A DNA stretch of 64,000 nucleotides from an uncultured Candidatus Saccharibacteria bacterium (GTDB lineage Bacteria; Patescibacteriota; Minisyncoccia; Phycocordibacterales; CSBR16-119), in assembly GCA_964426385.1 (NCBI GenBank), contig CAYRQF010000001.1:21712-85711 (forward strand), written 5' to 3'. The notes beneath the pieces were generated by a model. It had not been told where the DNA came from, made no database searches, and saw only the letters and a program-made list of their open reading frames with translations. Shown here in pieces: positions 6,841 through 55,713 of this stretch (positions within the stretch are counted from its first letter, which is position 1; every line of letters starts with the position of its first letter). The position numbers and the translations under genes are program-made.

Positions 6841-7431
6841 ATGTCTAAATCGATTTTCATCATTGGCCAGTCTGGCTCGGGTAAGGACACTCTGGCCGCA
6901 AGCCTCATCGAATATTTGGGAGGAGAATCAAAAGTGCTCTATATATCGACAGGCGAGGAGCTCCGAAAATTTACAAAAGGAGAGTATCTGACTGCGAAGC
7001 TTGCCAAATCCAACAACGAGAAGGGTCACATTGCACCATGGTTTGTTATCGTGGGGTGCTGGTTCAGGAAACTGAGCGAAGAATTTACTGGAGAGCAAAT
7101 AATGCTCTGGAACGGAACACCACGGTCTGCCAAAGAATTCGAGATACTTTCTCAGATGATCGAGTTCTATGGCAGGCATGCAGATATGATTCACCTCCAG
7201 GTACCAGACGAGGAATGCTTGAAAAGGATCACAGACCGGCAAAATGCTATAGGACGAGAAGAAACAAAAACCGAACAATCAATAAGAAACAAGCTTCAGT
7301 TTTATTACGATAAAGTCTTGCCGGCTATTGAGCTAGCTAAGACAGATCAGAATTTCACCGTTCATGAGATAGATGGGGCGGGGAGTAAGGAGGAAGTTTT
7401 TGAGAGGGTGAAGAAAGCCCTGTCGATATAG
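6841..7431 (+). CDS. P-loop nucleotide/nucleoside kinase family protein (AAA_33 / adenylate-kinase-like)
   Basis: Walker A GQSGSGKDT at N-terminus; about 196 aa, typical NMP-kinase size. Confidence 0.45.
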   Translation: MSKSIFIIGQSGSGKDTLAASLIEYLGGESKVLYISTGEELRKFTKGEYLTAKLAKSNNEKGHIAPWFVIVGCWFRKLSEEFTGEQIMLWNGTPRSAKEFEILSQMIEFYGRHADMIHLQVPDEECLKRITDRQNAIGREETKTEQSIRNKLQFYYDKVLPAIELAKTDQNFTVHEIDGAGSKEEVFERVKKALSI

Positions 7432-7432
7432 G

Positions 7433-7505
7433 TGCGCGATAGAGGATTCGAACCTCTGACCTACCCCACGTCAAGGGGTCGCTCTACCAACTGAGCTAAC
7501 CGCGC
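7433..7505 (-). tRNA. tRNA-Val (anticodon GAC)
   Basis: Reverse complement folds as a cloverleaf: acceptor GCGCGGT/ATCGCGC, T-loop GGTTCGAATCC, anticodon loop TTGACGT; no encoded CCA. Confidence 0.85.
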
Positions 7506-8102: not shown

Positions 8103-8174
8103 GGCCCCATCGTCTAACGGTTAGGACAGCAGGTTTTCAATCTGTTAATCGGAGTTCGATTCTCCGTGGGGTCA
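8103..8174 (+). tRNA. tRNA-Glu (anticodon TTC)
   Basis: Acceptor GGCCCCA/TGGGGTC, T-loop GTTCGATTC, anticodon loop TTTTCAA; possible promoter TTGCCA-N16-TATACT at 8039-8066. Confidence 0.8.
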
Positions 8175-8251
8175 CAAAATAGAGAGCTAGTTCGAGCGCT
8201 CTAGAAGTGCTACAGGTTTATAAATAAGACAGTATTATTAAGTGTTAGCAA

Positions 8252-15362: not shown

Positions 15363-15574
15363 AAAAATACTAGGACTTTGCAAAGCTGTTAATAGCCTAA
15401 TTATATGTCATTACGGCTCGTATAAATACGGATTTTGGGGGTGAGTGTGAACAACTAGACGGGTAGGCCGGGCGGTTAAGTTTAGTTGACAGTCAGATAA
15501 ATAGACGTTGTAAAACGGCCTGACGCTCCAACCAACTCAGGCATTTTACTTTGATTTCTGCCATACGTTTTAAT

Positions 15575-15658: not shown

Positions 15659-16504
15659 ATGAATCTACGCGAAATAATCAGTATCTCTAGGCCACGCTTT
15701 TGGCTATATGAAATGGGGACATACTTTATCGGTGTACTTGTGGCGACACAATTCCTCGAGGACTTTTTACTACCAGACATCCTAATCTTCGGATTTTTCT
15801 TCTTGATACCGGCGAATATTCTGATTTACGGTATTAACGATATTTTTGACTATGAGACAGATCGGCTCAATCCGAAAAAGGTAGAATACGAAGCTCTCCT
15901 CGTCCCCGACAAGCACAGAGCAGTTTGGGTATGGATTCTCGCGACGAATATTCCATTCCTCGTTTACGCATTTACGATAAACGCGAAAACAGGATTATAC
16001 CTTCTCGTATTTTATTTCTTCGCGAGTTTTTATTCTGCGACACCTATCAGGGCGAAAATCCGGCCCTTACTAGATTCACTCTTTTCTGCCGGTCACTATA
16101 TCTTTACCGGGGTATTCGGCTACTTCCTCGCGGGTGGGGAGGGGTTTCCTCTAGTCGGTGTTGTCGCAGGTATGCTATGGGCGATGGCGATGCACGCATA
16201 CTCGGCTGTGCCTGATATTAAGGCAGATACCGATGCTGGTTTCAAAACTATAGCCACATGGCTAGGTAGAAATAAAACTATCGTTATGTGTCTCGTTTTC
16301 TATATTGCCTCTGCGGTGCTTTTCTCTACACTCATCGGAGTGTTTCCACTCATTGCAGTCCTAGCCTATGTATTCCTCATGATGAAGTCTTTGAGGACAA
16401 CGGACGATAATAGGTTATTTCAAATCTATACTTATTTCCCATGGGTGAACTTCATCACACCGATGGTGTGGTCAATAATTTACATGGTAACGAAGTTCGG
16501 TTGA
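15659..16504 (+). CDS. UbiA-superfamily prenyltransferase (lycopene-elongase/CrtEb-like candidate)
   Basis: Polytopic membrane protein; first Asp-rich motif YGINDIFDYETD (NDxxDxxxD) and second motif DIKADTDAG; divergent from the crtI-crtB-crtE block. Confidence 0.7.
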   Translation: MNLREIISISRPRFWLYEMGTYFIGVLVATQFLEDFLLPDILIFGFFFLIPANILIYGINDIFDYETDRLNPKKVEYEALLVPDKHRAVWVWILATNIPFLVYAFTINAKTGLYLLVFYFFASFYSATPIRAKIRPLLDSLFSAGHYIFTGVFGYFLAGGEGFPLVGVVAGMLWAMAMHAYSAVPDIKADTDAGFKTIATWLGRNKTIVMCLVFYIASAVLFSTLIGVFPLIAVLAYVFLMMKSLRTTDDNRLFQIYTYFPWVNFITPMVWSIIYMVTKFG

Positions 16505-16506
16505 GG

Positions 16507-18021
16507 CTAGAGCTCTTTTAGGGGGTTAGGGTGTTTTATACCTTCGATACGCTTATAGGCGAGCTCAGATGATATGAGGCATATCGGCATACCGATACCT
16601 GGGTTCGTGCCAGCGCCTACATAGTAAAGATTTTCGACGCGCTTACTTTTGTTGTTCGGTCTCATAAGTGTCTGCTTCAGAGTGTGAGCGAGTCCGAGAG
16701 CTGTTCCGCCGAAAGCGTTGTAGTCGGCCTTGAACTCTTCGTGAGTATACATCGATTCGTATTCGATGATGTCTTCCAAGTCCGGAATATCTAAATCTTT
16801 CTTCATCATATTTATCACCCTGTCACGGTACCCTTTCTTCTCTGCTTCGGTAAAAGATAGGTGAGACGCCACAGGAACTAGTACGAACAGTGTCTCTTTG
16901 CCCTCTGGTGCCACAGAGGCATCTGATTTTGATGGACAAGATACGTAGTACGAAGGATCGTCAGGGAATTTGGGATTGTCGAAAACTTCCTCAAAATTCT
17001 TCTTCCAGTCTTTGGAGAAGCGTAGGTTGTGATGAGTGAGAGATGGGACTTTGCGTGAGAGGCCGAGGAAAAGAATAAACGCCGATGGTCCCATAACGGC
17101 TTTGTCCCAATACTTTTTCTTATACGTTCGCAGACTATCTTCTTTTATCAAATTCATCTCGGTGAAATTCATGTCAGCATTTGAAACCACAAAGTCTCCG
17201 GTCACCATCTCTCCGGTAGAGAGTTTGATTCCAGTTACTTTGCTGTCCTCAACTAATATTTCAGAAACAGGGGAGTTGGTGTGGATTTTGGCGCCATGTT
17301 TTGTAGCGATATTCTCTAGCGTCTCGATGACTTTGTAGATTCCGCCATCTGGGTAGTACACGCCCATATCAAAGTCGATAAAGTTCATCATGTTGTATAG
17401 AGCTGGGGTCTTGTCTGGTGCGCTACCGAGGAAAACCAATGTATATTCTAGGATCTTTTTTAGTCTGTCATCTTTGAACCATTTGTTCAGGTAGCTTTCC
17501 ATCGTTTGAAAAGGATTCATCCGGAGGCCCTCTTTCATGAAATCTTTCTGCAAGAAATCAAAAATGGAATCATAATTCCTGTACATGAACTTATCTTTCG
17601 CAAGCTCGTATTGCTCGCCAGAGATTTTTAGGTATTTTTTGATTTTCTCGCCAGATCCGGCCTCGAGCTTCTCAAATGTCTCCAAATCCTTTGAAAGGTC
17701 TGAATACATATCTAGCACCGGGAATTTTTCGTCGCCAGGGAAGAACACCCTATAAGAAGGAGAAAGTTTTGTAAGTTTTAAATGGCTTTTTATGTCTTCG
17801 CCTAAAAGGTTAAAGAAATCCTCAAAGACATCTGGCATCAGATACCATGATGGTCCCATGTCAAAAATGAAGCCTTTTTCTTCAAAGACGCTCGCCCGTC
17901 CTCCCACATGGGCGTTCTTTTCGTATAGGCTCACCTGGTAACCCTTTTTCCCCAGGAGGCAGGCTAGTCCGAGTCCACCTATACCTCCACCGATTATGAC
18001 TACATGTTTTTTAGGTACCAT
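16507..18021 (-). CDS. crtI: phytoene desaturase (CrtI family)
   Basis: N-terminal FAD fold VVIIGGGIGGLGLA; C-terminal YYVGAGTNPGIGMP CrtI signature; 504 aa. Confidence 0.8.
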   Translation of the reverse strand: MVPKKHVVIIGGGIGGLGLACLLGKKGYQVSLYEKNAHVGGRASVFEEKGFIFDMGPSWYLMPDVFEDFFNLLGEDIKSHLKLTKLSPSYRVFFPGDEKFPVLDMYSDLSKDLETFEKLEAGSGEKIKKYLKISGEQYELAKDKFMYRNYDSIFDFLQKDFMKEGLRMNPFQTMESYLNKWFKDDRLKKILEYTLVFLGSAPDKTPALYNMMNFIDFDMGVYYPDGGIYKVIETLENIATKHGAKIHTNSPVSEILVEDSKVTGIKLSTGEMVTGDFVVSNADMNFTEMNLIKEDSLRTYKKKYWDKAVMGPSAFILFLGLSRKVPSLTHHNLRFSKDWKKNFEEVFDNPKFPDDPSYYVSCPSKSDASVAPEGKETLFVLVPVASHLSFTEAEKKGYRDRVINMMKKDLDIPDLEDIIEYESMYTHEEFKADYNAFGGTALGLAHTLKQTLMRPNNKSKRVENLYYVGAGTNPGIGMPICLISSELAYKRIEGIKHPNPLKEL

Positions 18022-18833
18022 GCGTATGTTTTTATACTGATAAGGATTTTTTGCCAGGCGTTTGTTTTCGCTCTTTTTGTAAATACGTCGTAGTCTTGTT
18101 TCTCTATCTGGTCCAATATGGCTTCGTATAGATTGCCAGCTAGGAGGATAGGGTAACGGGCAACCGGTGGAAGTAGGTGAATTCCCAATTTTGCTTTTGA
18201 AAAAAGTTGCCGAGCTTGGTTAATTTTAAAAATAATAAATTCCTTTGGAATATTTTGTGTCTTTATGTTATCCTCACCTATCCCATAGTTGTTCATCTCG
18301 TCTAATGGTAAGTATATCCTATCTTTTGTTTCGTAGTCCTCTCCTATATCACGCAAGAAATTAGTTAACTGCATGGCCTCAGCCAGTGCTGTCGCATAGG
18401 GCACAGCCTCATCTCTAAAGTCTCCAAATATGTGCATCATCATGAGACCTACAGATGTAGCTGACCCATACATATAGCCTTGAAGCTCACTCATATCAGC
18501 ATAACTACGCTTTTTGAAATCCATCAACATGGATGACAAAAAGGCGTCATTGTATTTATGAGGAATATTAAACTTATGCCTAGTCATCAGCATGGCATTC
18601 ATCTCAGGTCGTGCTGAAACGCCGACTTTTTCAGATGCTCGCCAGTCACTTATCCATTCGGCCAGCTTCTCTTCATTTCTTTCTATATCGACAATGTCGT
18701 CGGGGATTCTGGTCCAGGCATAAAGAGCGTATGTGCCGAGACGGATATGTTGCGGGAAGAATCTTGTTGCAAAATAGTACCCTTTACCGAATTTCTGGTG
18801 GATTCTTCTGCAGTATTCGAAGTCGTCTATCAT
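18000..18833 (-). CDS. crtB: phytoene synthase (squalene/phytoene synthase family)
   Basis: YCRRIHQKFGKGYYFATRFFP N-terminal region and MQLTNFLRDIGEDYE...RIYLP signature. Confidence 0.8.
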   Translation of the reverse strand: MIDDFEYCRRIHQKFGKGYYFATRFFPQHIRLGTYALYAWTRIPDDIVDIERNEEKLAEWISDWRASEKVGVSARPEMNAMLMTRHKFNIPHKYNDAFLSSMLMDFKKRSYADMSELQGYMYGSATSVGLMMMHIFGDFRDEAVPYATALAEAMQLTNFLRDIGEDYETKDRIYLPLDEMNNYGIGEDNIKTQNIPKEFIIFKINQARQLFSKAKLGIHLLPPVARYPILLAGNLYEAILDQIEKQDYDVFTKRAKTNAWQKILISIKTYAWYLKNM

Positions 18834-19810
18834 CTGTCACGTTTGGTTATCTTCAGAAGTAATGCATGCCATGTTTCTGCATCTGGAATTTTTCTTAGTA
18901 ATTTCTGAGTGTCAGCGATCAGCATGTCTCGCTCTGAGTTTATCTTTTCTAGTGTTCCTGAAGTGGTCACTAGGCTTCGAAGTGTGTCTCTTTCGGTTTG
19001 GTTCAGCACCTTGCCAAAATATTTCTTGAAAGCTTTGTTTTTAATTAGATAGAAAGATACCAGTGTTGCCTGGCGAGTTTCTATGTCCTGAAAAGTCTTC
19101 TTGTTGAGCTTCTTCTCATCACCGAATATGTCGAGGAGGTCATCATCTATCTGAAATAGCACGCCCATATTTTCATTGAGGGTGCTGTATGTTTTCTGAA
19201 GTTTCTTGGATACTTTGACCCGTCTTAGAGAGAGTCCTATTTCTGCAGGGTGGGTGAAAGTATATCGCGCTGATTTGAGGATTGTTTTCTCGTCTATTTC
19301 TGTTTTGGTCCAGTTCGTACGGGTAGACATCTCAACATCCATCATCTCGCCTATAGCTACCTGCTCGACTAGTTTGCAGAATATACTATGGGACTCTGCT
19401 TCTTTATTTTGCTTTATAAAAGCTTCATGAGCCCAGTTCAGTACGAGGTCTCCTGCTAGGAGGGCGTATGAATTTCCATAATGCTGATCTTTCTCCAGGC
19501 TGTGGAGTGTGCGGGTTCCGTGTCTGGACGGTGACTTGTCGATGATGTCGTCATGGATTATAGCCATCAGATGGACGAGCTCGATAGCGATAAGTTGGTT
19601 AATTATCTGGCGATCAAGCTTCGAGGACCCATATGCCAAGTAGGCGATATACGGGCGTATTCTTTTGCCATTCTCTGCAACTCGTCTTATGTGCCCTACG
19701 ATGGCGTGAGTTTTTTTACTAGAGGTGACAGTACAAGCTCTAGCGATAGACTTATCTAGGTGAGATAAGAAAAGAGGGTCAAAGACTGTTCTGAAGTCTC
19801 CAAGGTGCAT
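18830..19810 (-). CDS. crtE: polyprenyl (geranylgeranyl) diphosphate synthase
   Basis: GKRIRP, first DDxxD (IHDDIID) and second DDxxD (QIDDDLLD) motifs; likely start at internal Met 19810, 1 nt after the trxB stop. Confidence 0.75.
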   Translation of the reverse strand: MHLGDFRTVFDPLFLSHLDKSIARACTVTSSKKTHAIVGHIRRVAENGKRIRPYIAYLAYGSSKLDRQIINQLIAIELVHLMAIIHDDIIDKSPSRHGTRTLHSLEKDQHYGNSYALLAGDLVLNWAHEAFIKQNKEAESHSIFCKLVEQVAIGEMMDVEMSTRTNWTKTEIDEKTILKSARYTFTHPAEIGLSLRRVKVSKKLQKTYSTLNENMGVLFQIDDDLLDIFGDEKKLNKKTFQDIETRQATLVSFYLIKNKAFKKYFGKVLNQTERDTLRSLVTTSGTLEKINSERDMLIADTQKLLRKIPDAETWHALLLKITKRDR

Positions 19811-19811
19811 G

Positions 19812-20741
19812 TTAAGTATTCTTATGTAGATACATGTAGATATCCTCGAGAGCTTTGACTCCGTCACCAGCGGCGATGTTGTTCTGGTGGTAGAGCACAT
19901 CCGCACAGTCACCAGCAGCCCATATGCCTGGGACGCTCGTCATCTGAGTACGAGGGTCAGTTATGATTTTTTTGTATTTATCCATCTCGACTACACCCTC
20001 GGCAAATCCGGTATTTGGGATCTGTCCTATCTCTACGAAGATACCTTTGACAGGGAGTTCCGTCTCTACTTCACCAACTTTATATTTGAGTCCTGAGACG
20101 AATTTGTCACCGAGGATAGCTGTGATCTCTGCGTTCATTACAGCTTTGGCCTTCGGGTTCGCCAAAACTTTCTCGACAGTTATCTCGTCAGCGCGAAACT
20201 CGGTAGATCGTTGGATGATGGTGACAGATGAGCAATATGCGAGCAGTTGCGCAGCCGTTTCGAGCGCGGCGTTGCCACCGCCAAGTACGGCGACGTCCTG
20301 ACCTGAGAATAGTGGTCCATCACATGAGGCGCAGTAGGTGAGACCTCGGTGCTCGAGTGCATCAGCGCCGGGGATAGATGAGTCGAGTTTTCGGCGTCCG
20401 GAGCCTGAGGTGATGAGGACTGCGCGAGTTTCGAATGATTCTCCTGCGTTGGTTATCACAGAAAATACTTTGTCAGCTTTCGAGAGACCTTCGACTCGTG
20501 CACCAGTTTTGACCGTGAGGAACTCGCCCTCGTAGTAGGCGACGTGAGCGCGCAGGTCCTTGGCGAGCTGTGAGCCAGCGATCTCGGGCGTGCCGATCCA
20601 GTTGTAGATTTTCTCAGAGACGACAGATTGTCCACCGAATTCTTCGGCAACCATTAGGGTTTTAAGTTGCTTCCTCGCAGCATAGACTGCTGCAGCTGAG
20701 CCAGCAGGTCCAGCACCAATTATTATCAAATCGTATGTCAT
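19812..20741 (-). CDS. trxB: thioredoxin-disulfide reductase
   Basis: MTYDLIIIGAGPAG FAD motif, redox-active CASCDG, second NAD(P) fold GGGNAALE; real start at Met 20741 (track ORF is N-terminally over-extended). Confidence 0.85.
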   Translation of the reverse strand: MTYDLIIIGAGPAGSAAAVYAARKQLKTLMVAEEFGGQSVVSEKIYNWIGTPEIAGSQLAKDLRAHVAYYEGEFLTVKTGARVEGLSKADKVFSVITNAGESFETRAVLITSGSGRRKLDSSIPGADALEHRGLTYCASCDGPLFSGQDVAVLGGGNAALETAAQLLAYCSSVTIIQRSTEFRADEITVEKVLANPKAKAVMNAEITAILGDKFVSGLKYKVGEVETELPVKGIFVEIGQIPNTGFAEGVVEMDKYKKIITDPRTQMTSVPGIWAAGDCADVLYHQNNIAAGDGVKALEDIYMYLHKNT

Positions 20742-30315: not shown

Positions 30316-31637
30316 TAGATCAAAACTACAAAGAGTTCCTGGCTAGTAAACGGGTGACAATAATGGGCCTCGGTCTTCTCGGTCGAGGGCTTAACGACGC
30401 CAAGTTTCTGGCAAAGTACTGTGCCGAAGTTCTTGTTACCGATCTCAAATCCGCCGAAGATCTAAAGAATTCTGTTTCCGAGCTGGAAGATCTGCCAAAT
30501 ATCAAATTTGTCCTAGGGGAACACCGATTATGTGATTTCCGTAAGCGTGACTTCATCCTAAAAGCTGCGGGGGTTCCTCTCGATTCAGAATATATCGCTC
30601 ATGCAAAAGAAAACGGTGTTCCTGTGTATATGGATGAGGCACTTTTCGTAATGCTTGCACCCAAGATTATGACTATAGGAGTGACCGGTACGCGTGGTAA
30701 GACGACAACGACGATGATGATTGATTCCATACTTTCTGCCTCAGGCAAGGGGTATTTTATCGGTGGCAATATCCGTGGCCTCGCGACTCTACCACTTCTC
30801 GAGGAGGTAAAAGGGGGCGATACAGTTCTAATGGAACTGTCATCATGGCAACTCCAGGGCTTCGGCGATCTATCTATGAGTCCTGACATAGGAGTATTTA
30901 CTAACTTTTATGACGACCATTTCAACTACTACAAGTCTGACACTGAAGCGTACTTCAACGACAAGTCATTCGTCTACAAATTCCAGAAGCCGTCCGACTC
31001 TATAATCTTTGGATCGGATATCATGGATCATTTCAAACAGCGAATCGTGCTCGCATCATCCGAGAAACACGAGATCAGTGCTTCAGATCTGCCAGCAGAT
31101 GTCGTATTGAAAATCCCAGGTGAGCACAATCGTTTCAACGCAGCCCTCGCCTGGAAGGTGGCTGAGACACTCGGTATCTCGCCCGAGGTCAGGAAGCGAG
31201 GCCTCGAATCCTTTACCGGCGTGCCTGGGAGACTCGAGCTTGTGCGTGTCACACACGGAATATCCTTTTATAACGACACCACGGCCACCACACCTGATGC
31301 TACGGTGAACGCCATCGAGGCACTAAAAGACAAGGGTCCGATTATTCTCATCATGGGTGGTTTCGACAAGGGCCTCGATATGCATATGATTTTCGACAGT
31401 GTATCCGTGGTGAAGAAAATAGTCCTTCTTCCTGGTACAGGTTCTGATTCGATTGTGGGCAAAGGCCTCACAAACTATGAAAAAGTCTCGAGTCTCCAAG
31501 AGGCGATTGACAAAGCGATGACTCTGGCAGATGCTGGAGATATAGTTCTTATGAGTCCAGCATTTGCCTCGTTCGGGTTATTCAAGAACGAATTCGACAG
31601 AGGAGATCAGTTCGACGCGATAGTAAAATCAATATGA
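30312..31637 (+). CDS. murD: UDP-N-acetylmuramoylalanine--D-glutamate ligase
   Basis: Rossmann N-terminus VTIMGLGLLGRG; P-loop GVTGTRGKTTTT; 4-nt overlap with murE. Confidence 0.8.
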   Translation: MIDQNYKEFLASKRVTIMGLGLLGRGLNDAKFLAKYCAEVLVTDLKSAEDLKNSVSELEDLPNIKFVLGEHRLCDFRKRDFILKAAGVPLDSEYIAHAKENGVPVYMDEALFVMLAPKIMTIGVTGTRGKTTTTMMIDSILSASGKGYFIGGNIRGLATLPLLEEVKGGDTVLMELSSWQLQGFGDLSMSPDIGVFTNFYDDHFNYYKSDTEAYFNDKSFVYKFQKPSDSIIFGSDIMDHFKQRIVLASSEKHEISASDLPADVVLKIPGEHNRFNAALAWKVAETLGISPEVRKRGLESFTGVPGRLELVRVTHGISFYNDTTATTPDATVNAIEALKDKGPIILIMGGFDKGLDMHMIFDSVSVVKKIVLLPGTGSDSIVGKGLTNYEKVSSLQEAIDKAMTLADAGDIVLMSPAFASFGLFKNEFDRGDQFDAIVKSI

Positions 31638-39059: not shown

Positions 39060-39088
39060 TTGACAGGTAATTGGTTTGATGATAGAAT
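39060..39088 (+). promoter_or_regulatory. sigma70-type promoter TTGACA-N17-TAGAAT, with a second TTGACA 12 nt upstream
   Basis: Tandem -35 hexamers at 39048 and 39060; -10 TAGAAT at 39083. Confidence 0.45.
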
Positions 39089-39149
39089 CAAAAACACAAA
39101 TTATATAAGAACTTTAGAAGCTTATTTATTAACAAATATAAAGCGATTT

Positions 39150-40178
39150 ATGGCGATTATTTCCTTCAGACCAAAACAAGTAAGTAAGAAGCTCCTGTCA
39201 TCACTAAAAGACAGATCTTTTGATGTCATAGCGAACCGTTATGGCCTAACTGACGATGCCGAGCGGAAGACCCTAGAAGCTATAGGCAAAAAGTACGGTA
39301 TTACCCGTGAGCGTGTTCGCCAGATCGAAAATACGGCGCTCAACACTATTCGTAAGTCAAAAGAGATGGATGAGCACAAAGCTGTTTTTGTAGAGCTCAA
39401 GGCACTACTACACTCTCTGGGTGCTGTCGTGTCCGAAGAAGAGTTCCTGGATCATGTCTCGAAGGACAAGTCTACACAGAACCATATCCACCTCGCCCTC
39501 GTTCTATCTGATGATTTCTATAAGGACAAAGAAGACGAGGATTTCCGATCTCGCTGGTCTATCGATCATGAGGTTGTCGACAGTGTCCATGAGGCGCTCG
39601 AGAAGCTCTACAGTTCTCTAGGAGATGATGAGCTCGTACCTGAGAGCAAGATGATAGAGAAATTCCTGTCACATGTAAAAAACCTTTCTGAAGAGCATCG
39701 TGATCAGGAGATCGCCAAGCGATGGCTCGGACTCTCAAAGAAGATCGCAAAGAACCCACTCAACGAATGGGGTCGCGCTGACTCGAAAAATGTTAAGACT
39801 CGCGGAGTCAAAGACTATACATTCCTCGTCATGCGACGCCACGGAGAGCCTATGCACTTCCGAGAAGTAGCCGAAGCCATCACAAAAACTTTTAACAGGA
39901 AAACTCTCGCCGCAACTACTCACAACGAACTTATCAAGGACCCACGTTTCGTTCTAGTGGGCCGAGGACGCTATGCTCTCAGAGATTGGGGATACAAGCC
40001 AGGAATAGTTCGTGAGGTTATCGCTGGCATTCTGAAGGAGCACGGACCGATGGGCAAGGACGATGTTGTGGATGCAGTGCTGAAGGAAAGATTCCTCAAG
40101 CGAAACACAATCCTAGTCAATCTCCACAACCCGAAATATTTCAAGAAGACAAAAGACGGAAAATACGATAACGCTTAA
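39150..40178 (+). CDS. sigma-70 region-4-like HTH plus C-terminal HARE-HTH domain protein
   Basis: LTDDAERKTLEAIGKKYGITRERVRQIENTAL resembles sigma region 4; C-terminal FVLVGRGRYALRDWGY resembles the HARE-HTH motif; start assumed at internal Met 39150. Confidence 0.4.
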   Translation: MAIISFRPKQVSKKLLSSLKDRSFDVIANRYGLTDDAERKTLEAIGKKYGITRERVRQIENTALNTIRKSKEMDEHKAVFVELKALLHSLGAVVSEEEFLDHVSKDKSTQNHIHLALVLSDDFYKDKEDEDFRSRWSIDHEVVDSVHEALEKLYSSLGDDELVPESKMIEKFLSHVKNLSEEHRDQEIAKRWLGLSKKIAKNPLNEWGRADSKNVKTRGVKDYTFLVMRRHGEPMHFREVAEAITKTFNRKTLAATTHNELIKDPRFVLVGRGRYALRDWGYKPGIVREVIAGILKEHGPMGKDDVVDAVLKERFLKRNTILVNLHNPKYFKKTKDGKYDNA

Positions 40179-51291: not shown

Positions 51292-51900
51292 ATGAAAATA
51301 GGACCAAAATACAAAATAGCAAGAAGGCTTGGAAGCGCTGTGTTCGATAGGACACAGACGCCGCGTTTTGCTACTTCAGAGGCTCGTCACGCAAAAGGTG
51401 CCAAGTCCAAGAAGCGCAAGCAGGTCTCTGAATACGGCCTTCAGCTCAATGAGAAGCAGAAGATTCGATATACCTACGGCGTATCTGAGAAGCAGTTCAG
51501 TAACTACGTGAAGGAAGCCGTCGAGACAAAAGGTGGTAACGCCGGTGAGCTCCTCCAGAGATTCCTTGAACAGCGCCTAGACAATATCGTCTACCGATTC
51601 GGTCTAGCCACAACTAGAGCTGCAGCACGCCAGATGGTATCTCACGGACATTTCCGAGTTAACGGCAAGAGAGTGACAGTCCCGTCCTACAGGACTAACG
51701 AGGGAGATGTTATCTCTGTTCGCGAGGGTAGTAGATCGAGCAAGCTTTTCGAAGACCTTACGAAGAAGCTCGACAAATATATGTATCCAGCATGGCTAGC
51801 ATTCGATCCAGCTTCGATGGAAGGTAGCGTCAAGAGCAAGCCGACCAAGGAAGGTTCGCTTCTCGATTTCGGACGAGTCCTCGAATTCTACAGTCGTTAA
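51292..51900 (+). CDS. rpsD: 30S ribosomal protein S4
   Basis: 202 aa; S4 domain RLDNIVYRFGLATTRAAARQMVSHGHFRVNGKRV. Confidence 0.9.
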   Translation: MKIGPKYKIARRLGSAVFDRTQTPRFATSEARHAKGAKSKKRKQVSEYGLQLNEKQKIRYTYGVSEKQFSNYVKEAVETKGGNAGELLQRFLEQRLDNIVYRFGLATTRAAARQMVSHGHFRVNGKRVTVPSYRTNEGDVISVREGSRSSKLFEDLTKKLDKYMYPAWLAFDPASMEGSVKSKPTKEGSLLDFGRVLEFYSR

Positions 51901-51931
51901 AATTTAATTATTTATTATTAGTAAAAATTCT

Positions 51932-52918
51932 ATGGTTGAATCAAATATTATATTGCCATCGAAGCCTAGGCTTGTCTCCGAAGAGGGGAACAAGGGTATT
52001 TACGAGATCGACAATCTGTACCCTGGCTATGGCCACACCCTCGGGAACTCTCTCCGCAGGATAATCCTGTCGTCACTTTCTGGTGCCGCTATTACAAGTC
52101 TCAAGATCGACGGTGTTGATCATGAGTTCGCTGTGATGGACGGAGTCAAAGAGGATGTTTTGAATATAATACTCAACCTGAAGCGTATCCGTTTCAAGCT
52201 TCTCACAGACGAGCCTCAGATCGTCAACCTCAAGTGGAAAGGTGTCGGAATAGTGAAAGCTAGCGACATCGAAGTCTCTGGTCAGGTAGAGGTACTCACT
52301 CCAGATCAGTACATCTGCGAGGCCACTGACAAGAAAACTGAACTCAATATGGAGATCTACGTCCAGAAGGGCCTAGGTTATGTCTCGAAGGAAGACATCC
52401 AGAAGGAGAAGATGTCAGTTGGTCACATCTCTATGGACGCCATCTTTACACCAATCCGCCGAGTATCATACGAGGTAGAGAATATGCGCGTTGGCGACTC
52501 GACGAACTACAACCGCCTCCGCATTGCTGTCGAAACTGACGGTACATACACTGCACGCGAAGCTGTCGAGAAATCTATCGAGATCATGATCGTTCAGCTC
52601 CAGTCTATACACGACTTCAAAGGCCTCGATGAGAAGCCTGAGGAAATCATCGAAGCAGTCGAGAAAGAAATCAAAGACGTTCACGATGAGAAGGAGAGTG
52701 CTGAGGGTGAAGAAGAGAAAGAGACTATGAAAACTCGCATCGAAGACCTCAATCTCTCTACTCGAACACTCAATGCACTCGCCAATGCGAAGATCCGAAC
52801 TGTCGGCGGCATCGCTAGGAAGACGAGCGAGGACCTACTCGCTGTCGAGGGTATGGGAGACAAGGGATTGCAGGAAATCAAAAGGACCTTGAGTAATTTT
52901 GGTATTCTGCTAAAGTAA
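51932..52918 (+). CDS. rpoA: DNA-directed RNA polymerase alpha subunit
   Basis: N-terminal LYPGYGHTLGNSLRRIILSSL; C-terminal domain with LNLSTRTLNAL. Confidence 0.9.
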   Translation: MVESNIILPSKPRLVSEEGNKGIYEIDNLYPGYGHTLGNSLRRIILSSLSGAAITSLKIDGVDHEFAVMDGVKEDVLNIILNLKRIRFKLLTDEPQIVNLKWKGVGIVKASDIEVSGQVEVLTPDQYICEATDKKTELNMEIYVQKGLGYVSKEDIQKEKMSVGHISMDAIFTPIRRVSYEVENMRVGDSTNYNRLRIAVETDGTYTAREAVEKSIEIMIVQLQSIHDFKGLDEKPEEIIEAVEKEIKDVHDEKESAEGEEEKETMKTRIEDLNLSTRTLNALANAKIRTVGGIARKTSEDLLAVEGMGDKGLQEIKRTLSNFGILLK

Positions 52919-52938
52919 TACGGACCTAATCAGGAGAT

Positions 52939-53295
52939 ATGAGACATCACAATAAAAACAGAAAATTCGGACGACCAACGAGCCAGAGAGCGGCGCTTCT
53001 TAAGAGTCTCGCCTTGTCTCTAGTCAAAGCCGGTCGTATCCGCACTACAGAGGCCAAAGCCAAGGAACTACGACCTTTTATGGAGAAGCTCGTTACTCGG
53101 GCCAAAGTGGGAACCCTAGCCTCAAAGCGTATTATCGTATCTCGCCTTATGAACCGCGTCCCAGAGTCAAAGATCCTGATCGAAGAGATCGCACCACGTT
53201 TCAAGGGCGTAGCTGGCGGTTATACCCGTGTCTTGAAGCTTCCGCCTCGTAAGTCTGACGGAGCCAAGATGGCGCTTATCGAATTTGTAAAATAA
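52939..53295 (+). CDS. rplQ: 50S ribosomal protein L17
   Basis: MRHHNKNRKFGRPTSQRAALL N-terminus. Confidence 0.9.
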   Translation: MRHHNKNRKFGRPTSQRAALLKSLALSLVKAGRIRTTEAKAKELRPFMEKLVTRAKVGTLASKRIIVSRLMNRVPESKILIEEIAPRFKGVAGGYTRVLKLPPRKSDGAKMALIEFVK

Positions 53296-53296
53296 T

Positions 53297-53641
53297 ATGG
53301 AACACCAGATAGATGCAAAAGGGAAGAAACTCGGTCGCGTAGCTCAAGAAGCTGCGGCACTACTTATGGGTAAAAATGACCCATCTTTTGAACGCAACAA
53401 GCTTCAGGCAGTAAAGGTAACCATCCTTAACGCTTCGCAGGCTGATATCTCAGCTGAGAAGCTCGAGAACAAGGAATATGAACGATACTCCGGTTATCCA
53501 GGAGGCCTCGTTTACGAGAAAATGAAGCGAACTGTCGAGAAGCACGGCTACGGTGAAGTTTTCCGATTGGCTGTTATGGGTATGCTCCCAGCAAACCGAC
53601 TAGCAGATAAGATGATGAAGAATCTCATCGTAAAAGAATAA
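53297..53641 (+). CDS. rplM: 50S ribosomal protein L13 (short)
   Basis: GKKLGRVAQEAA and AVMGMLPANRL motifs. Confidence 0.75.
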   Translation: MEHQIDAKGKKLGRVAQEAAALLMGKNDPSFERNKLQAVKVTILNASQADISAEKLENKEYERYSGYPGGLVYEKMKRTVEKHGYGEVFRLAVMGMLPANRLADKMMKNLIVKE

Positions 53642-53647
53642 TTATTT

Positions 53648-54058
53648 ATGACAACTGCAAATAAAGAAAAATATTTTGAGGCAGTAGGACGCAGGAAGAC
53701 TGCGACAGCACGTGTGAGACTCACTGCTTCTACTAAGCCTACGTTTACAGTGAACGACAAGACTCTCGAAGAATACTTCCGAGTAGCAGACCTCCGAGCT
53801 ATCGCCACAGAGGCATTCGAGAAGAATCCTATCGACAAGAAATTCTCAGTGTCAGCTCATGTTAATGGCGGGGGGATGAACGCTCAGGCAGAATCTATCC
53901 GTCACGGAATCACACGATGCCTCGTTGAGTTCGATGAGTCATTACGTGCTCCGCTCAAGAAGCTCGGTTTCCTCAAGCGCGATCCTCGTTCACGCGAACG
54001 TCGCAAGGCCGGTCTCGCTCAGGCTGCTCGTAAGCGCAAGCAGTGGAGTAAGCGCTAA
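53648..54058 (+). CDS. rpsI: 30S ribosomal protein S9
   Basis: GRRKTATARVRL start and C-terminal ARKRKQWSKR. Confidence 0.9.
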   Translation: MTTANKEKYFEAVGRRKTATARVRLTASTKPTFTVNDKTLEEYFRVADLRAIATEAFEKNPIDKKFSVSAHVNGGGMNAQAESIRHGITRCLVEFDESLRAPLKKLGFLKRDPRSRERRKAGLAQAARKRKQWSKR

Positions 54059-54079
54059 TCTCAAATACAATATCTCGAC

Positions 54080-54107
54080 AAAATCCCCCACGGGGATTTT
54101 GTCTTTT
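54080..54107 (+). terminator. rho-independent terminator AAAATCCCCCA-CGGGGATTTT plus GTCTTTT
   Basis: Perfect hairpin plus T-run after rpsI. Confidence 0.65.
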
Positions 54108-54215
54108 AGGGGAGATATGCATATTTTATCCACCGTGATATGGGACAAGCCCTGTCCTATAGGAGTACAATGTTTAGAGAATCGTTTCTCTTTCACCAAC
54201 CAAATCCTCAACGCC

Positions 54216-54503
54216 ATGAGAGCTAGAACGTCGCTGTTCGTTTTGTTGATGGCAGGTACGACCAGTCTTCTCGCCCAGAAGCCGGTCTATCCGAACCCCG
54301 CAGGAGATATGGTCAAGATCGAAGCACCAGATAGCTCGGTCGTTACCATCGTCAATGCGACGGGAGGTGAAGTCAGGCGCGGCGTTACCGCGAATGGCTA
54401 TATCGAGCTCGATACCAAAGAGCTCGGTGAAGGGCTGTACTTCGTGAATGTGGTAACGGCTAACCGGCCGACCACCACGAGGCTCATCGTGGAGCACAAA
54501 TAA
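54216..54503 (+). CDS. minimal secreted protein: signal peptide plus Por/T9SS-type C-terminal sorting-domain-like module (95 aa)
   Basis: Signal MRARTSLFVLLMAGTTSLLAQ; remainder YPNPAGDMVKIEAPDSSVVTIVNATGGEVRRGVTANGYIELDTKELGEGLYFVNVVTANRPTTTRLIVEHK matches Por_Secre_tail pattern (YPNPa...i.n..G..v......g...ld...l..G.YFv.v.....t.klv); upstream in-frame extension overlapping rpsI judged spurious. Confidence 0.5.
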   Translation: MRARTSLFVLLMAGTTSLLAQKPVYPNPAGDMVKIEAPDSSVVTIVNATGGEVRRGVTANGYIELDTKELGEGLYFVNVVTANRPTTTRLIVEHK

Positions 54504-54589
54504 CAAGAGGGAACTAACCCTCAGAAGGACGACCATCACCCTGGCCGTCCTTCTAATAGGAACCGCACAATAGTGGTCTTTTTAATATA

Positions 54590-54618
54590 TTGACAGAACT
54601 ATTCTAATATAGTATAAT
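54590..54618 (+). promoter_or_regulatory. perfect sigma70-type promoter TTGACA-N17-TATAAT
   Basis: Exact consensus hexamers with 17-nt spacer, about 60 nt upstream of ORF 54680. Confidence 0.55.
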
Positions 54619-54679
54619 ATGCTATTAATTTTCTTTGAACAAACCACCTGTATAAACACAGGTCCAACAACAACAGAAC

Positions 54680-55156
54680 ATGGACAGCCTTGATTTCAAA
54701 ATCGCCGTTGGGATCTTAGAAGAGATCCGACAGACCCTCAAATTAGCCCAACGTGACGTGCTCCATTTGCATCATGCCGAGGTTTACGTTTCGCCTTATA
54801 ACAGTAATGGCGAAGGATACCTTGTGCGCATGGAAGCTGATCGAGGAAAGAGTATCAGCGGTCCGACGAAGCTCATCAGCGCTCATCTTCAGGTAGGATA
54901 TGATGATGATCGGGCTAGTGTCGCCGGTCTTGTGCTGCACCTCTTTCGTGAAGATGAATGTCACCGCATGGCAACGGTTGAGAACGTGTTCGATGCTATC
55001 CATGGCAAGGGGAGCATCAACGGTGATGTGATAAATGAAAGGACGTGGAAAGCGGCCATTTGCCACTTCCTACGTGCCGCCATTCAGGAGCTGAGGTCGC
55101 GACCTGAAGATGCCAGGGCAGAGGAGGTTGCATCTATCTTGTCCAAGTTCCTATGA
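54680..55156 (+). CDS. small hypothetical protein (158 aa), paralogous to ORF 22155..22565
   Basis: Shares GxYL[LV]xRMEAD, [IV]GY..RAS and CxRM collinear motifs with ORF 22155; own consensus promoter and terminator. Confidence 0.4.
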   Translation: MDSLDFKIAVGILEEIRQTLKLAQRDVLHLHHAEVYVSPYNSNGEGYLVRMEADRGKSISGPTKLISAHLQVGYDDDRASVAGLVLHLFREDECHRMATVENVFDAIHGKGSINGDVINERTWKAAICHFLRAAIQELRSRPEDARAEEVASILSKFL

Positions 55157-55162
55157 AGAAGT

Positions 55163-55196
55163 GAAGGGCGCTCCGTAAGGCGCTCTTTTGCTTTTT
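55163..55196. terminator. bidirectional terminator AAGGGCGCTCC-GTAA-GGCGCTCTT plus TTGCTTTTT
   Basis: Imperfect GC hairpin plus T-run between convergent genes. Confidence 0.45.
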
Positions 55197-55713
55197 ATTT
55201 AATATCAAAACTTTTCTTTAGAGATTCTTCTGTGATCGGATCTATGTGTTGAGTAACAACGATAATTATTTCGTCGTGTAGTCCTAGATCTGTTTTTATA
55301 TTTAAGAAAAGATGCTCGAATGGATAGGGTGATACCCAGACCGAGTTTTTCATACAGAGGAATCCTGCCTTTTTTAGGATGTAACGGATCGAGTCGCGTT
55401 CGCTTTTCCTAGACTCGGGCAGGTCGAGCATGACCATGCGCCAGAAACCGTCCCAGCGAGTGTCGACGAGACTTTTCGGATTACTTAGTTTTATATTACG
55501 GAGTTTCTGACGACCTTCAGGGGTGATGCGGATGAACGATGACTGAGCGGTCTCGATCTCTTCTACGAGTCCGGCCTCTGACAGATTCTTCAGACTGCGG
55601 GTCAGGGCGTAGCGGTCCTTTTGTCCGTCAGCAGAGAGGTCAGCCCTATTCAGGGCTTTTTTTGAGGCCAGGGTTTCGAGGATTTCCTCTTGGATTTTAG
55701 CTTTTCTTGACAT
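55195..55713 (-). CDS. winged-helix transcriptional regulator with PaaX-C/Cas2-fold-like C-terminal domain; divergent from grpE-dnaK-dnaJ
   Basis: N-terminal wHTH-like EEILETLASKKALNRADLS...LEKLSEAGLVE; C-terminal WDGFWRMVMLDLPESRKSERDSIRYILKKAGFLCMKNSVWVSPYP resembles the PaaX C-terminal WxGxW...P...R motif. Confidence 0.35.
   Translation of the reverse strand: MSRKAKIQEEILETLASKKALNRADLSADGQKDRYALTRSLKNLSEAGLVEEIETAQSSFIRITPEGRQKLRNIKLSNPKSLVDTRWDGFWRMVMLDLPESRKSERDSIRYILKKAGFLCMKNSVWVSPYPFEHLFLNIKTDLGLHDEIIIVVTQHIDPITEESLKKSFDIK

What the first reader, a model, noticed from the sequence alone, without database searches (positions are those of the whole stretch)
54216..54503. Stand-alone signal-peptide plus T9SS-type C-terminal sorting-domain-like miniprotein right after the rpsI operon
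The 95-aa ORF consists only of a signal peptide and about 70 residues that match the Por_Secre_tail/T9SS CTD consensus (YPNPA start, central G..V, GxYFV, terminal hydrophobic beta-strand). Such CTDs normally terminate large cargo proteins of Bacteroidota-type secretion. A cargo-less copy in an otherwise CPR-like gene context suggests horizontal acquisition, a decayed remnant, or a different role such as an Ig-like adhesin stub.
Basis: partly seen in the sequence, partly recalled or inferred. Interest (0 to 1): 0.5.

Follow-up and report, generated by a model that had tools for sequence, protein, structure and literature searches.

The report
Cargo-less secretion-tag miniprotein in CPR bacterium
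A real 95-residue gene in a candidate-phyla-radiation (Parcubacteria-type) bacterium encodes only an export signal plus the small beta-sandwich "sorting tag" that Bacteroidota attach to type IX secretion cargo; it sits in a hypervariable slot after the ribosomal gene rpsI, where near-identical genomes carry very different versions, so it most likely acts as a variable exported surface protein and not as a secretion tag.

Summary
ORF 54216-54503 (+) encodes a Sec signal peptide (residues 1-20) directly followed by a complete type A T9SS C-terminal domain. It scores 44.2 bits against PF18962 (cut-off 27) and 42.4 bits against TIGR04183 (cut-off 23). The predicted fold matches the PorZ and mirolase CTDs.

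The host is a Patescibacteria (Paceibacteria/Parcubacteria-type) genome. No T9SS component was found in the 64 kb window.

The gene is neither an assembly artefact nor a decayed remnant:
- It has its own promoter-like site and terminators.
- There is no trace of lost cargo upstream.
- Signal-peptide-plus-CTD proteins of 95-100 aa occupy the same rpsI-to-paaX-like slot in several relatives.
- Other relatives carry 261-364 aa signal-peptide-plus-cargo-plus-CTD proteins in that slot.

Between this window and a near-identical genome (RpoA, L17 and S9 100% identical), nucleotide similarity stops 6 nt into the coding sequence and resumes after the stop codon. The two miniproteins share 41% identity. 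Within one allele type dN/dS is about 0.2.

Best reading, by inference: a Sec-exported, T9SS-independent, polymorphic Ig-like surface or extracellular binding module, kept as exchangeable alleles. I class it as a new variant of a known domain family, of moderate interest.

The parts
53648..54058 (+). rpsI (ribosomal protein S9), last gene of the infA-rpmJ-rpsM-rpsK-rpsD-rpoA-rplQ-rplM-rpsI run. It forms the conserved left border of the variable slot.
   Evidence: ORF list. The gene at the same position in L005 and L008 carries PF00380. It is 100% identical in aa to L036.
54077..54107 (+). Intrinsic terminator of rpsI: a 12-bp stem (GACAAAAUCCCC / GGGGAUUUUGUC) followed by UUUU.
   Evidence: RNA fold -18.8 kcal/mol, z -4.6. 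Nearly invariant in five relatives.
54113..54129 (+). Conserved AT-rich element AGATATGCATATTTTAT that contains the 10-bp palindrome ATATGCATAT (54115-54124). Possibly an operator or UP-like element; this is inference.
   Evidence: The palindrome occurs twice in the window against 0.04 expected. It is conserved across allele types I-III.
54142..54171 (+). Promoter-like site GGGACA-18-TACAAT dedicated to the miniprotein gene.
   Evidence: Consensus scan, 9 of 12 matches. The GGACA and TAnAAT boxes are conserved in L036, L037, L007 and L008.
54191..54203 (+). 13-mer TTTCACCAACCAA in the C/A-rich leader, invariant across relatives; there is no Shine-Dalgarno sequence.
   Evidence: Alignment A4. 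Most genes in the window also lack a Shine-Dalgarno sequence.
54216..54275 (+). Sec-type signal peptide, residues 1-20 (MRARTSLFVLLMAGTTSLLA), with predicted cleavage before Q21.
   Evidence: Read from the sequence. All orthologues have the same layout, with cleavage 2-4 residues before the YPNPA motif.
54276..54503 (+). Mature 75-aa protein, a type A T9SS-CTD-fold beta-sandwich. The Pfam match covers residues 24-92, nt 54285-54491. The stop codon is 54501-54503.
   Evidence: PF18962 44.2 bits and TIGR04183 42.4 bits. Model and fold matches. PDB profile hits.
54507..54585 (+). Three 3' hairpins, the last followed by CUUUUU: the terminator region of the miniprotein gene.
   Evidence: RNA fold -33 kcal/mol, z -5.6. 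The hairpins are conserved in L008 and L001. Terminator-like site at 54562-54577.
54222..54542 (+). Hypervariable block 1. It has no nucleotide similarity to the otherwise 94%-identical genome L036 and coincides with the miniprotein coding sequence.
   Evidence: blastn break-points. Miniprotein 41% aa identity against 97-100% for its neighbours.
54590..55156 (+). Second cassette of the slot: a perfect TTGACA-17-TATAAT promoter (54590-54618) followed by orphan ORF158 (54680-55156). It co-occurs with the type I miniprotein. In L036 an unrelated 87-aa membrane protein takes its place, and it is absent in L008.
   Evidence: No Pfam, PADLOC or PHROG match.
55195..55713 (-). PaaX_M-domain winged-helix protein, the conserved right border of the slot, followed by grpE-dnaK.
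   Evidence: PF20803, E 3e-21. Present at the same place in L008, L036, L038, L041 and L044-L046.

Best explanation
The gene encodes a small exported protein that is nothing but a T9SS-type-A-CTD-fold (Ig-like, seven-strand) beta-sandwich.

Proposed mechanism. The gene is transcribed as its own monocistronic unit from a conserved promoter just after the rpsI terminator. The product is exported by Sec, its signal peptide is cleaved after A20, and a 75-aa domain is released outside the cytoplasmic membrane of a Paceibacteria (CPR) cell.

This lineage has, as far as is known, no outer membrane and no type IX machinery. The domain therefore cannot act there as an outer-membrane sorting tag. It most likely works as a free-standing surface or extracellular binding module. 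It belongs to a clade-specific set of signal-peptide-plus-(cargo)-plus-CTD proteins housed in a hypervariable slot between rpsI and a paaX-like gene.

The slot behaves like a polymorphic surface-protein locus. Regulatory flanks are conserved, while the coding sequence is replaced by deeply divergent alleles even between conspecific genomes. This is the pattern expected under diversifying or frequency-dependent selection from a host, a phage or a competitor.

Shown: domain identity, predicted fold, taxon, gene autonomy, positional orthologues, allele replacement, and purifying selection within an allele type.

Inferred: export and cleavage, absence of T9SS from the whole genome, the binding function, and the selective agent.
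For: - Domain and fold.
- Taxon: every named RpoA relative is Patescibacteria/Paceibacterota. The window has short aminoacyl-tRNA synthetases (LeuRS 720 aa, AlaRS 558 aa) and no T9SS, LPS or Bam component among about 55 proteins scanned.
- Own promoter-like site and terminators, conserved across relatives.
- Signal-peptide-plus-CTD-only orthologues in the same rpsI-to-paaX slot: L008/P0073, L036/P0162. L037/P0163 lies directly after rpsI on a contig that ends there. L007/P0014 shares the same leader. All pass the Pfam cut-off.
- Cargo-bearing CTD proteins in the same slot: L010 261 aa, L041 263 + 360 aa, L046 264 + 364 aa.
- Allele replacement: against L036, RpoA, L17 and S9 are 100% identical in aa and the DNA is 94.4% identical up to nt 54221. 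No nucleotide similarity is detectable over 54222-54542, and similarity resumes at 54543. Miniprotein identity is 41% (dN 0.69, dS about 3.2), against flanking dS values of 0.2-0.9.
- Purifying selection within allele type II: dN/dS 0.17-0.24.
- Foreign-looking composition: CTD genes have GC 0.52-0.57 and GC3 0.58-0.70, against backgrounds of 0.41-0.49. The miniprotein's GC3 of 0.656 exceeds that of all 39 other window genes measured (mean 0.50, sd 0.06).
- Precedent for cargo-less CTD proteins that do not need the translocon: Fjoh_0547, 112 aa, is still secreted in sprA and porV mutants (PMC7712824).
Against: - There are no expression or localisation data.
- Only 64 kb of the genome, from a 273-kb contig, could be checked for T9SS components. 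The claim that CPR bacteria lack an outer membrane rests on general knowledge, not on this genome.
- The only residues invariant across the clade's CTDs are PNPA, G50, D66, GxY and R89. PNPA, GxY and R89 look like the canonical CTD motifs B, D and E (my assignment; the review gives no sequences), which it describes as surface-exposed contacts for PorV and PorM (PMC10202324). Their retention could mean that a CTD-recognising partner still exists.
- No binding partner or ligand was identified.
- The allele types are as far from one another as from generic Bacteroidota CTDs. Independent imports into one slot therefore cannot be told apart from in-situ diversification.
Confidence: 0.55

Rival explanations
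1. Host-directed CTD mimic. The CPR cell secretes CTD-bearing proteins, and this CTD-only one, that are recognised from outside by the PorV/PorU attachment complex of a neighbouring or host Bacteroidota cell. That would either dock CPR proteins onto the host surface or, for the cargo-less form, compete with the host's own T9SS cargo.
For: The residues I equate with CTD motifs B, D and E, which the review describes as PorV/PorM contacts, are the only invariant residues in the clade's CTDs. The window's allele scores better against generic CTDs, mostly of unknown source organism (about 50 bits), than against other clade alleles (27-37 bits), although that pool was pre-selected as its best hits. 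[quoted passage not shown] Many CPR bacteria are thought to be epibionts (general knowledge). Rapid allele turnover fits host-interaction genes.
Against: There is no evidence that this Paceibacteria clade associates with Bacteroidota. No co-occurrence data were available. A cargo-less CTD would deliver nothing after PorU cleavage. The motif E lysines needed for secretion are replaced by arginine. The idea is entirely speculative.
Confidence: 0.07
2. Polymorphic secreted factor plus cognate partner, in the manner of a bacteriocin-immunity or signal-receptor cassette. The miniprotein and the gene after it (ORF158 here, an 87-aa membrane protein in L036) would be swapped together as matched pairs.
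For: Both coding sequences are replaced between the window and L036, while the spacer between them and its promoter are conserved. ORF158 accompanies the type I allele in all four assemblies that reach it (the window, L001, L005; L006 holds only its first 51 codons). The partner in L036 is a small protein with hydrophobic stretches that look like membrane segments (by eye), as many immunity proteins are.
Against: The type III allele in L008 has no partner gene. A 75-aa Ig-like domain has no toxin-like feature. ORF158 and the other slot genes match nothing in Pfam, PADLOC or PHROGs. The ORF158 model is unusable at pLDDT 43. The sample of allele-partner pairs is tiny.
Confidence: 0.1
3. A genuine T9SS substrate or regulator, like Fjoh_0547 or PorA, in an organism that does have a type IX system.
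For: Full-length matches to PF18962 and TIGR04183 above the curated cut-offs, plus the CTD fold. NCBI's rule would name it a 'T9SS type A sorting domain-containing protein'.
Against: The genome is Patescibacteria. T9SS is described as confined to Bacteroidota and the FCB group (PMC10202324; PMC12398890 abstract). No T9SS component was found among the window's proteins. No paper in the library links T9SS with CPR bacteria.
Confidence: 0.03
4. A decaying remnant of a larger cargo protein, or a spurious ORF or assembly artefact.
For: Relatives have longer CTD proteins in the same slot, so a deletion origin of the miniprotein is conceivable historically.
Against: The ORF is intact, with its signal peptide fused directly to the CTD, in five or more lineages. 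dN/dS is about 0.2. The promoter-like site and terminator are conserved. No cargo remnants were found. The same sequence appears in four independent assemblies.
Confidence: 0.04

Closest known systems
Type A C-terminal domain (CTD) of type IX secretion cargo (PF18962 / TIGR04183), e.g. the CTDs of RgpB, PorZ, mirolase and NucA
   Different: This copy has no cargo. The host is a CPR bacterium with no known outer membrane or T9SS. The motif E lysines are mostly replaced by arginine. The gene lies in a hypervariable allele-swapping slot. Its function as an outer-membrane sorting or attachment signal is therefore not expected.
Fjoh_0547 of Flavobacterium johnsoniae (112-aa CTD-containing protein)
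   Same: An almost cargo-less signal-peptide-plus-CTD protein. It is reported to be secreted even in sprA and porV mutants, so it is independent of the translocon (PMC7712824).
   Different: It belongs to a T9SS-bearing Bacteroidota organism. No sequence comparison was made here. Its function is also unknown.
DUF3244 stand-alone Ig-like proteins of Bacteroides (BT_3571 3sd2, BT_1867 4g5a, BVU_0276 3d33)
   Different: Only 15-18% identity. The miniprotein matches PF18962, not the DUF3244 family. These are Bacteroides proteins of unknown function.
PorA (PGN_0123) of Porphyromonas gingivalis
   Same: A small CTD protein that reaches the surface without the T9SS translocon and whose CTD form is itself functional, in PorXY-SigP signalling (PMC7712824; PMC12152298).
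   Different: It is 246 aa with a FimH-like N-terminal ligand-binding domain. It acts within a T9SS regulatory circuit that is absent here.

Membership tests
Type A T9SS C-terminal domain family (PF18962 / TIGR04183), as a domain family | Profile-HMM match above the curated threshold, covering the whole model | tested here: met
   PF18962 44.2 bits against a cut-off of 27, model positions 1-75 of 75. TIGR04183 42.4 bits against 23. All clade orthologues score 30-45 bits.
Type A T9SS C-terminal domain family (PF18962 / TIGR04183), as a domain family | Ig-like beta-sandwich of seven strands in two antiparallel sheets | tested here: met
Type A T9SS C-terminal domain family (PF18962 / TIGR04183), as a domain family | Conserved motifs B (PNP), D (GxY) and E (C-terminal Lys-containing strand) | tested here: inconclusive
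   P26-N27-P28-A29 and G73-x-Y75 are invariant in the clade. At the motif E position there is an invariant Arg (R89) in place of Lys, and only the window allele ends in K95.
Type A T9SS C-terminal domain family (PF18962 / TIGR04183), as a domain family | Located at the extreme C-terminus of a Sec-exported protein | tested here: met
   The domain ends 3 residues before the stop codon. An N-terminal signal peptide is present, read from the sequence.
T9SS substrate (functional class) | An N-terminal cargo or functional domain is carried by the CTD | tested here: not met
   The signal-peptide cleavage site lies 4-5 residues before the YPNPA motif. No cargo remnant is present upstream. Relatives in the same slot do carry cargo.
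T9SS substrate (functional class) | The organism encodes the T9SS machinery (SprA/Sov, PorV, PorU, PorK/L/M/N) and has an outer membrane with A-LPS | tested here: inconclusive
   None was found among about 55 window proteins with Pfam and NCBIfam. The taxon is Patescibacteria, which by general knowledge lacks an outer membrane and LPS. The rest of the genome could not be scanned.
T9SS substrate (functional class) | CTD-dependent secretion, PorU cleavage and A-LPS attachment | not testable with these tools
   Requires experiments.
DUF3244 (stand-alone Bacteroides Ig-like proteins) | Sequence match to the family profile | tested here: not met
   The Pfam scan at E <= 10 returns only PF18962. The similarity is structural only, at 15-18% identity.
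Diversity-generating retroelement (DGR) target | A variable repeat with a nearby template repeat and a reverse transcriptase | tested here: not met
   The coding sequence has no repeat elsewhere in the window. No reverse transcriptase was found among the scanned ORFs. Divergence spans the whole coding sequence. The bAvd-like protein at 58428-58808 matches the 23S rRNA intervening-sequence protein family (123 bits) and scores below the cut-off for bAvd.

The most novel reading that the evidence does not exclude
A CPR (Paceibacteria) lineage has adopted the Bacteroidota type IX sorting tag for inter-species use. Its Sec-exported CTD proteins would be recognised from outside by the PorV/PorU attachment complex of a T9SS-bearing host or neighbour. 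Cargo-bearing versions would be covalently planted on the host surface. The cargo-less miniprotein would act as a competitive blocker or decoy. Host counter-evolution would drive the allele turnover.
Probability: 0.07. Interest if true: 0.9.

Novelty: new variant of a known kind. Interest (0 to 1): 0.55.

Why it matters
The type A CTD is treated as the hallmark sorting signal of type IX secretion in Bacteroidota and the FCB group. Here it appears in a different setting: a family of such domains, with and without cargo, maintained under selection in a candidate-phyla-radiation lineage that should have neither an outer membrane nor a T9SS.

Two conclusions are possible. Either the fold has a T9SS-independent role, for example as an envelope or ligand-binding module, or CPR cells interact with the T9SS machinery of other bacteria.

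There is also a practical caution. Automatic labels such as 'T9SS type A sorting domain-containing protein' should not be taken as evidence of type IX secretion outside the FCB group.

Finally, the rpsI-to-paaX slot is a sharply bounded hypervariable locus. Coding sequences are exchanged while promoters and terminators are kept. It offers a tractable marker for strain-level diversification and surface-protein evolution in uncultivated Paceibacteria.

Tried and rejected
1. Paralogous CTDs elsewhere in the window. phmmer with the miniprotein and two custom CTD HMMs, run against the six-frame translation, found none.

2. Upstream cargo remnants. tblastn with the cargo parts of the 261-364 aa relatives against the region and against the whole window gave only noise, with E > 0.1 for the cargo queries (best 0.12).

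3. A DGR origin for the hypervariability. There is no template repeat and no reverse transcriptase.

4. A structured RNA in the conserved leader. Rfam at E <= 1 found nothing over 53900-54800. The 5' UTR fold is not unusual, at z -1.1.

5. T9SS components in the window. Pfam and NCBIfam scans found none.

6. Defence-system or phage affiliation of the slot genes. PADLOC and PHROGs found nothing for the miniprotein, ORF158 or the other small slot genes. Only the PIF1/RecD-like helicase of L041 matched.

7. Structure of ORF158 from a single sequence. pLDDT was 42.7, which is unusable, so no fold search was run.

8. The GTDB representative-genome scan with the miniprotein returned only generic Bacteroidales and Fluviicola CTDs.

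9. The afdb50 fold library was unavailable.

10. Literature searches linking the T9SS CTD with CPR, Patescibacteria or Parcubacteria returned nothing relevant.

11. A test for monophyly of the clade's CTD alleles was inconclusive. The domains are short and saturated, and the comparison pool was biased towards the window allele.

Full report
**1. The observation**

The ORF runs from the ATG at 54216 to the stop codon ending at 54503 and encodes 95 aa: MRARTSLFVLLMAGTTSLLAQKPVYPNPAGDMVKIEAPDSSVVTIVNATGGEVRRGVTANGYIELDTKELGEGLYFVNVVTANRPTTTRLIVEHK.

Residues 24-92 match the entire Pfam model PF18962 (Por_Secre_tail) at E 2.5e-11 and 44.2 bits, against a gathering cut-off of 27. They also match TIGR04183 at 42.4 bits against a cut-off of 23. 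A profile built from the protein and its relatives finds solved T9SS CTDs by sequence alone: NucA CTD 8glk_D (E 8e-11), FspA CTD 8glj_D, mirolase CTD 8qb1, and PorZ 5m11.

The first 20 residues have the form of a Sec signal peptide: a basic n-region, a hydrophobic core, and the site LLA|QK. This was read from the sequence, because no predictor was available. The mature protein is therefore about 75 aa and consists essentially of the CTD.

**2. The organism**

A search with the window's RpoA returns thousands of relatives. Every one that carries an organism name, at 62-78% identity, is labelled Candidatus Paceibacterota, Parcubacteria, Patescibacteria group, Wolfebacteria, Nomurabacteria or Pacebacteria.

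Gene content fits a CPR genome. The window holds short LeuRS (720 aa) and AlaRS (558 aa), the mur genes, MreB, FtsA/PilM-like proteins, and a run of rpsM-rpsK-rpsD-rpoA-rplQ-rplM-rpsI followed by grpE-dnaK-dnaJ. Shine-Dalgarno sequences are largely absent.

None of about 55 proteins scanned with Pfam and NCBIfam is a T9SS, LPS or Bam component. That CPR bacteria lack an outer membrane is general knowledge and was not tested here. The rest of the genome, of which the window's parent contig covers 273 kb, could not be examined.

**3. The gene is real and native**

The identical protein, in the identical context, occurs in two independent Logan assemblies (L005, L006). A 98% identical copy occurs in an ENA assembly (L001).

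The gene is an autonomous unit:
- A strong rpsI terminator hairpin precedes it (54077-54107; -18.8 kcal/mol, z -4.6).
- A promoter-like site GGGACA-18-TACAAT lies at 54142-54171.
- The leader is C/A-rich and contains an invariant 13-mer, TTTCACCAACCAA.
- Three hairpins follow the stop codon (54507-54585; -33 kcal/mol, z -5.6).

These flanking elements are conserved in relatives whose coding sequences are very different (alignments A1 and A4). There is no trace of a lost cargo domain. The 157-bp spacer is filled by the terminator and promoter, and tblastn with the cargo parts of related proteins finds nothing.

**4. Relatives: a family in a hypervariable slot**

An exhaustive HMMER search of 1.84 billion representatives found only generic CTDs at 30-45% identity. 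Most of the 28 short hits I fetched and read were fragments lacking a signal peptide; two were true signal-peptide-plus-CTD miniproteins, P0014 and P0073.

P0073 (100 aa) lies in L008 at exactly the same place, in the order S9, miniprotein, PaaX_M gene (opposite strand), GrpE, DnaK. A profile search then found P0162 and P0163 (98 aa each). P0162 (L036) lies in the same slot; P0163 (L037) lies directly after rpsI on a contig that ends there. P0014, on a 620-bp contig, shares the conserved leader.

Other relatives hold longer signal-peptide-plus-cargo-plus-CTD proteins in the slot:
- L010: 261 aa.
- L041: 263 aa and 360 aa, together with a PIF1/RecD-like helicase and two small ORFs.
- L046: 264 aa and 364 aa, plus a 118-aa signal-peptide protein.

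All of these CTDs pass the Pfam threshold. Three close relatives have no CTD gene in the slot: L038 has a 150-aa orphan, L045 a 77-aa ORF, and L044 nothing. Of the more distant relatives (S9 at or below 70% identity), those whose contigs extend beyond rpsI carry unrelated small membrane or lipoprotein-like genes, other unrelated genes, or nothing.

The clade therefore uses this domain natively, with and without cargo. Within the DNA available it is confined to this one variable locus.

**5. Allele replacement**

Against L036, the window's RpoA, L17 and S9 are 100% identical in amino acids, L13 is 97% and PaaX 99%. Their dS values are 0.2-0.9, which is roughly species-level relatedness. The miniprotein is only 41% identical, with dN 0.69 and dS about 3.2.

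The nucleotide pattern along the region, is as follows:

| Window coordinates | Similarity to L036 | What lies there |
|---|---|---|
| 51346-54221 | 94.4% | Conserved genes, up to 6 nt into the miniprotein CDS |
| 54222-54542 | none detectable | Miniprotein CDS |
| 54543-54682 | 77% | Terminators plus the promoter of the next gene |
| 54683-55163 | none detectable | ORF158 here; an unrelated 87-aa membrane protein in L036 |
| 55164 onward | 88% | PaaX-like gene and beyond |

The break-points coincide with the borders of the coding sequences. Because dS is also far higher than in the flanks, this is replacement by old, divergent alleles, through recombination across the conserved flanks. It is not simply fast amino-acid change.

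Within allele type II (L007, L036, L037; 66-83% identity) dN/dS is 0.17-0.24, so the protein is under purifying selection.

All CTD genes of the clade are richer in G+C than their genomes: GC 0.52-0.57 and GC3 0.58-0.70, against backgrounds of 0.41-0.49. The miniprotein's GC3 of 0.656 exceeds that of all 39 other window genes measured (mean 0.50, sd 0.06). This is consistent with a pool of cassettes that circulates among related genomes.

A DGR mechanism was examined and rejected. There is no template repeat and no reverse transcriptase, and the divergence spans the whole coding sequence.

**6. How it most likely works**

Shown:
- It is a complete type A CTD-fold domain behind a signal peptide.
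- It is its own transcription unit.
- It lies in a Patescibacteria genome.
- It is conserved in position.
- It is polymorphic as discrete alleles.
- It is selectively maintained.

Inferred:
- It is exported by Sec, cleaved after A20, and released or held at the cell surface.
- It cannot serve as an outer-membrane sorting or attachment signal, because the lineage should lack an outer membrane, A-LPS and a T9SS.
- It acts as a small Ig-like binding module on or near the cell surface.
- Its allele turnover reflects diversifying or frequency-dependent selection by a host, a phage or a competitor.

Confidence in this reading is about 0.55.

The main unresolved point is the pattern of conservation. 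The only residues invariant across the clade's CTDs are PNPA, G50, D66, GxY and R89. PNPA, GxY and R89 look like CTD motifs B, D and E (my assignment). The T9SS review describes those motifs as surface-exposed contacts for PorV and PorM (PMC10202324). That could reflect folding constraints, or it could reflect a conserved partner.

This observation feeds the most novel reading that the evidence does not exclude: CTD mimicry directed at the PorV/PorU attachment complex of T9SS-bearing neighbours. Such processing is at least possible in trans. [quoted passage not shown] I put this reading at about 7%.

The other rivals are:
- a secreted factor with a cognate partner cassette, here ORF158, at about 10%;
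- a genuine T9SS substrate, at about 3%;
- a remnant or artefact, at about 4%.

**7. Comparison with what is known**

As a domain, it is a member of the type A CTD family. The HMM thresholds, the fold and the C-terminal position are all met. Motif E is only partly met.

As a functional class, 'T9SS substrate' should not be claimed. The cargo criterion is not met in this gene, the machinery criterion is unsupported, and secretion dependence cannot be tested here.

Near-cargo-less CTD proteins are not unprecedented in Bacteroidota. Fjoh_0547 (112 aa) is secreted even without SprA or PorV, and PorA (246 aa) reaches the surface without the translocon (PMC7712824). The DUF3244 proteins are structural look-alikes that stand alone.

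What is new here is the setting:
- the host is a CPR lineage;
- the clade holds its own set of CTD proteins;
- the locus is sharply bounded and swaps alleles.

No paper in the searchable library connects the T9SS CTD with CPR or Patescibacteria. The one apparent hit concerns SAR406, not CPR bacteria.

**8. Verdict**

This is a real feature, correctly spotted. It is best described as a new variant of a known domain family in an unexpected host. The locus behaviour is interesting and the function is unknown but testable. Interest is 0.55.

Noticed in passing
window 8252-9727 (+), next to tRNA-Glu 8103-8175 and tRNA-Val 7431-7505: A 491-aa protein matches the anti-phage defence helicase-nucleases AbiO and Nhi almost end to end (PADLOC E 1e-171 and 2e-167). 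It lies in the lowest-GC stretch of the window (0.38 against an average of 0.46), beside tRNA genes. It looks like a horizontally acquired defence island in a CPR genome.
   Followed up: partly
window 58389-58822; gene at 58428-58811 (+): A 127-aa protein of the 23S rRNA intervening-sequence family (four-helix, bAvd-like) sits between dnaK and dnaJ. It is flanked by 23-24-nt inverted repeats (58389-58418 and 58792-58822). Relatives hold different genes in this dnaK-dnaJ gap (L038: 216 aa plus a tRNA_edit protein; L041: 89 aa; L044: nothing). This is a second variable slot and possibly a small mobile insertion.
   Followed up: partly
window 54590-55156 (+): Orphan ORF158 has a perfect TTGACA-17-TATAAT promoter and no match in Pfam, PADLOC or PHROGs. 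It accompanies the type I miniprotein allele in every assembly that reaches it. In L036 an unrelated 87-aa membrane protein replaces it behind the same conserved promoter region. The single-sequence structure model was unusable.
   Followed up: partly
window 15659-19912: A cluster of isoprenoid or carotenoid-type genes: UbiA prenyltransferase (15659-16504), phytoene-desaturase-like amine oxidase (16507-18021), squalene/phytoene synthase (18000-18833) and polyprenyl synthetase (18830-19912). This is unusual biosynthetic capacity for a CPR genome.
   Followed up: no
window 11283-15383 (-): A very large ORF of 1365 aa. Its only match is a weak esterase or PHB-depolymerase-like segment around residues 1040-1120. 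It may be a large surface or secreted protein.
   Followed up: no
window 54113-54129 (and 31378-31387): A perfect 10-bp palindrome, ATATGCATAT, lies within an AT-rich element upstream of the miniprotein's promoter-like site. It is conserved in relatives with different alleles. It occurs twice in the window against 0.04 expected. It may be an operator, for instance for the adjacent PaaX-like regulator.
   Followed up: partly
window-wide; examples at 50451, 51932, 53648, 56502: Most confidently identified genes, ribosomal protein genes included, have no Shine-Dalgarno motif within 25 nt upstream of the start codon. The leaders are A/T- or C/A-rich.
   Followed up: no
L041 12235-17129 and L046 11269-13720: In two relatives the same slot holds a 263/264-aa and a 360/364-aa signal-peptide-plus-cargo-plus-CTD protein. 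The cargo domains are Cys-containing and match nothing in Pfam. In L041 the slot also holds a PIF1/RecD-like helicase and two small ORFs. The 261-264-aa proteins are 82% identical between L010 and L041.
   Followed up: partly
window 39060-40178 (+): A 372-aa protein combines sigma-70 region 4 with a HARE-HTH domain and has no recognisable regions 2 or 3. This is an atypical sigma-like architecture.
   Followed up: no
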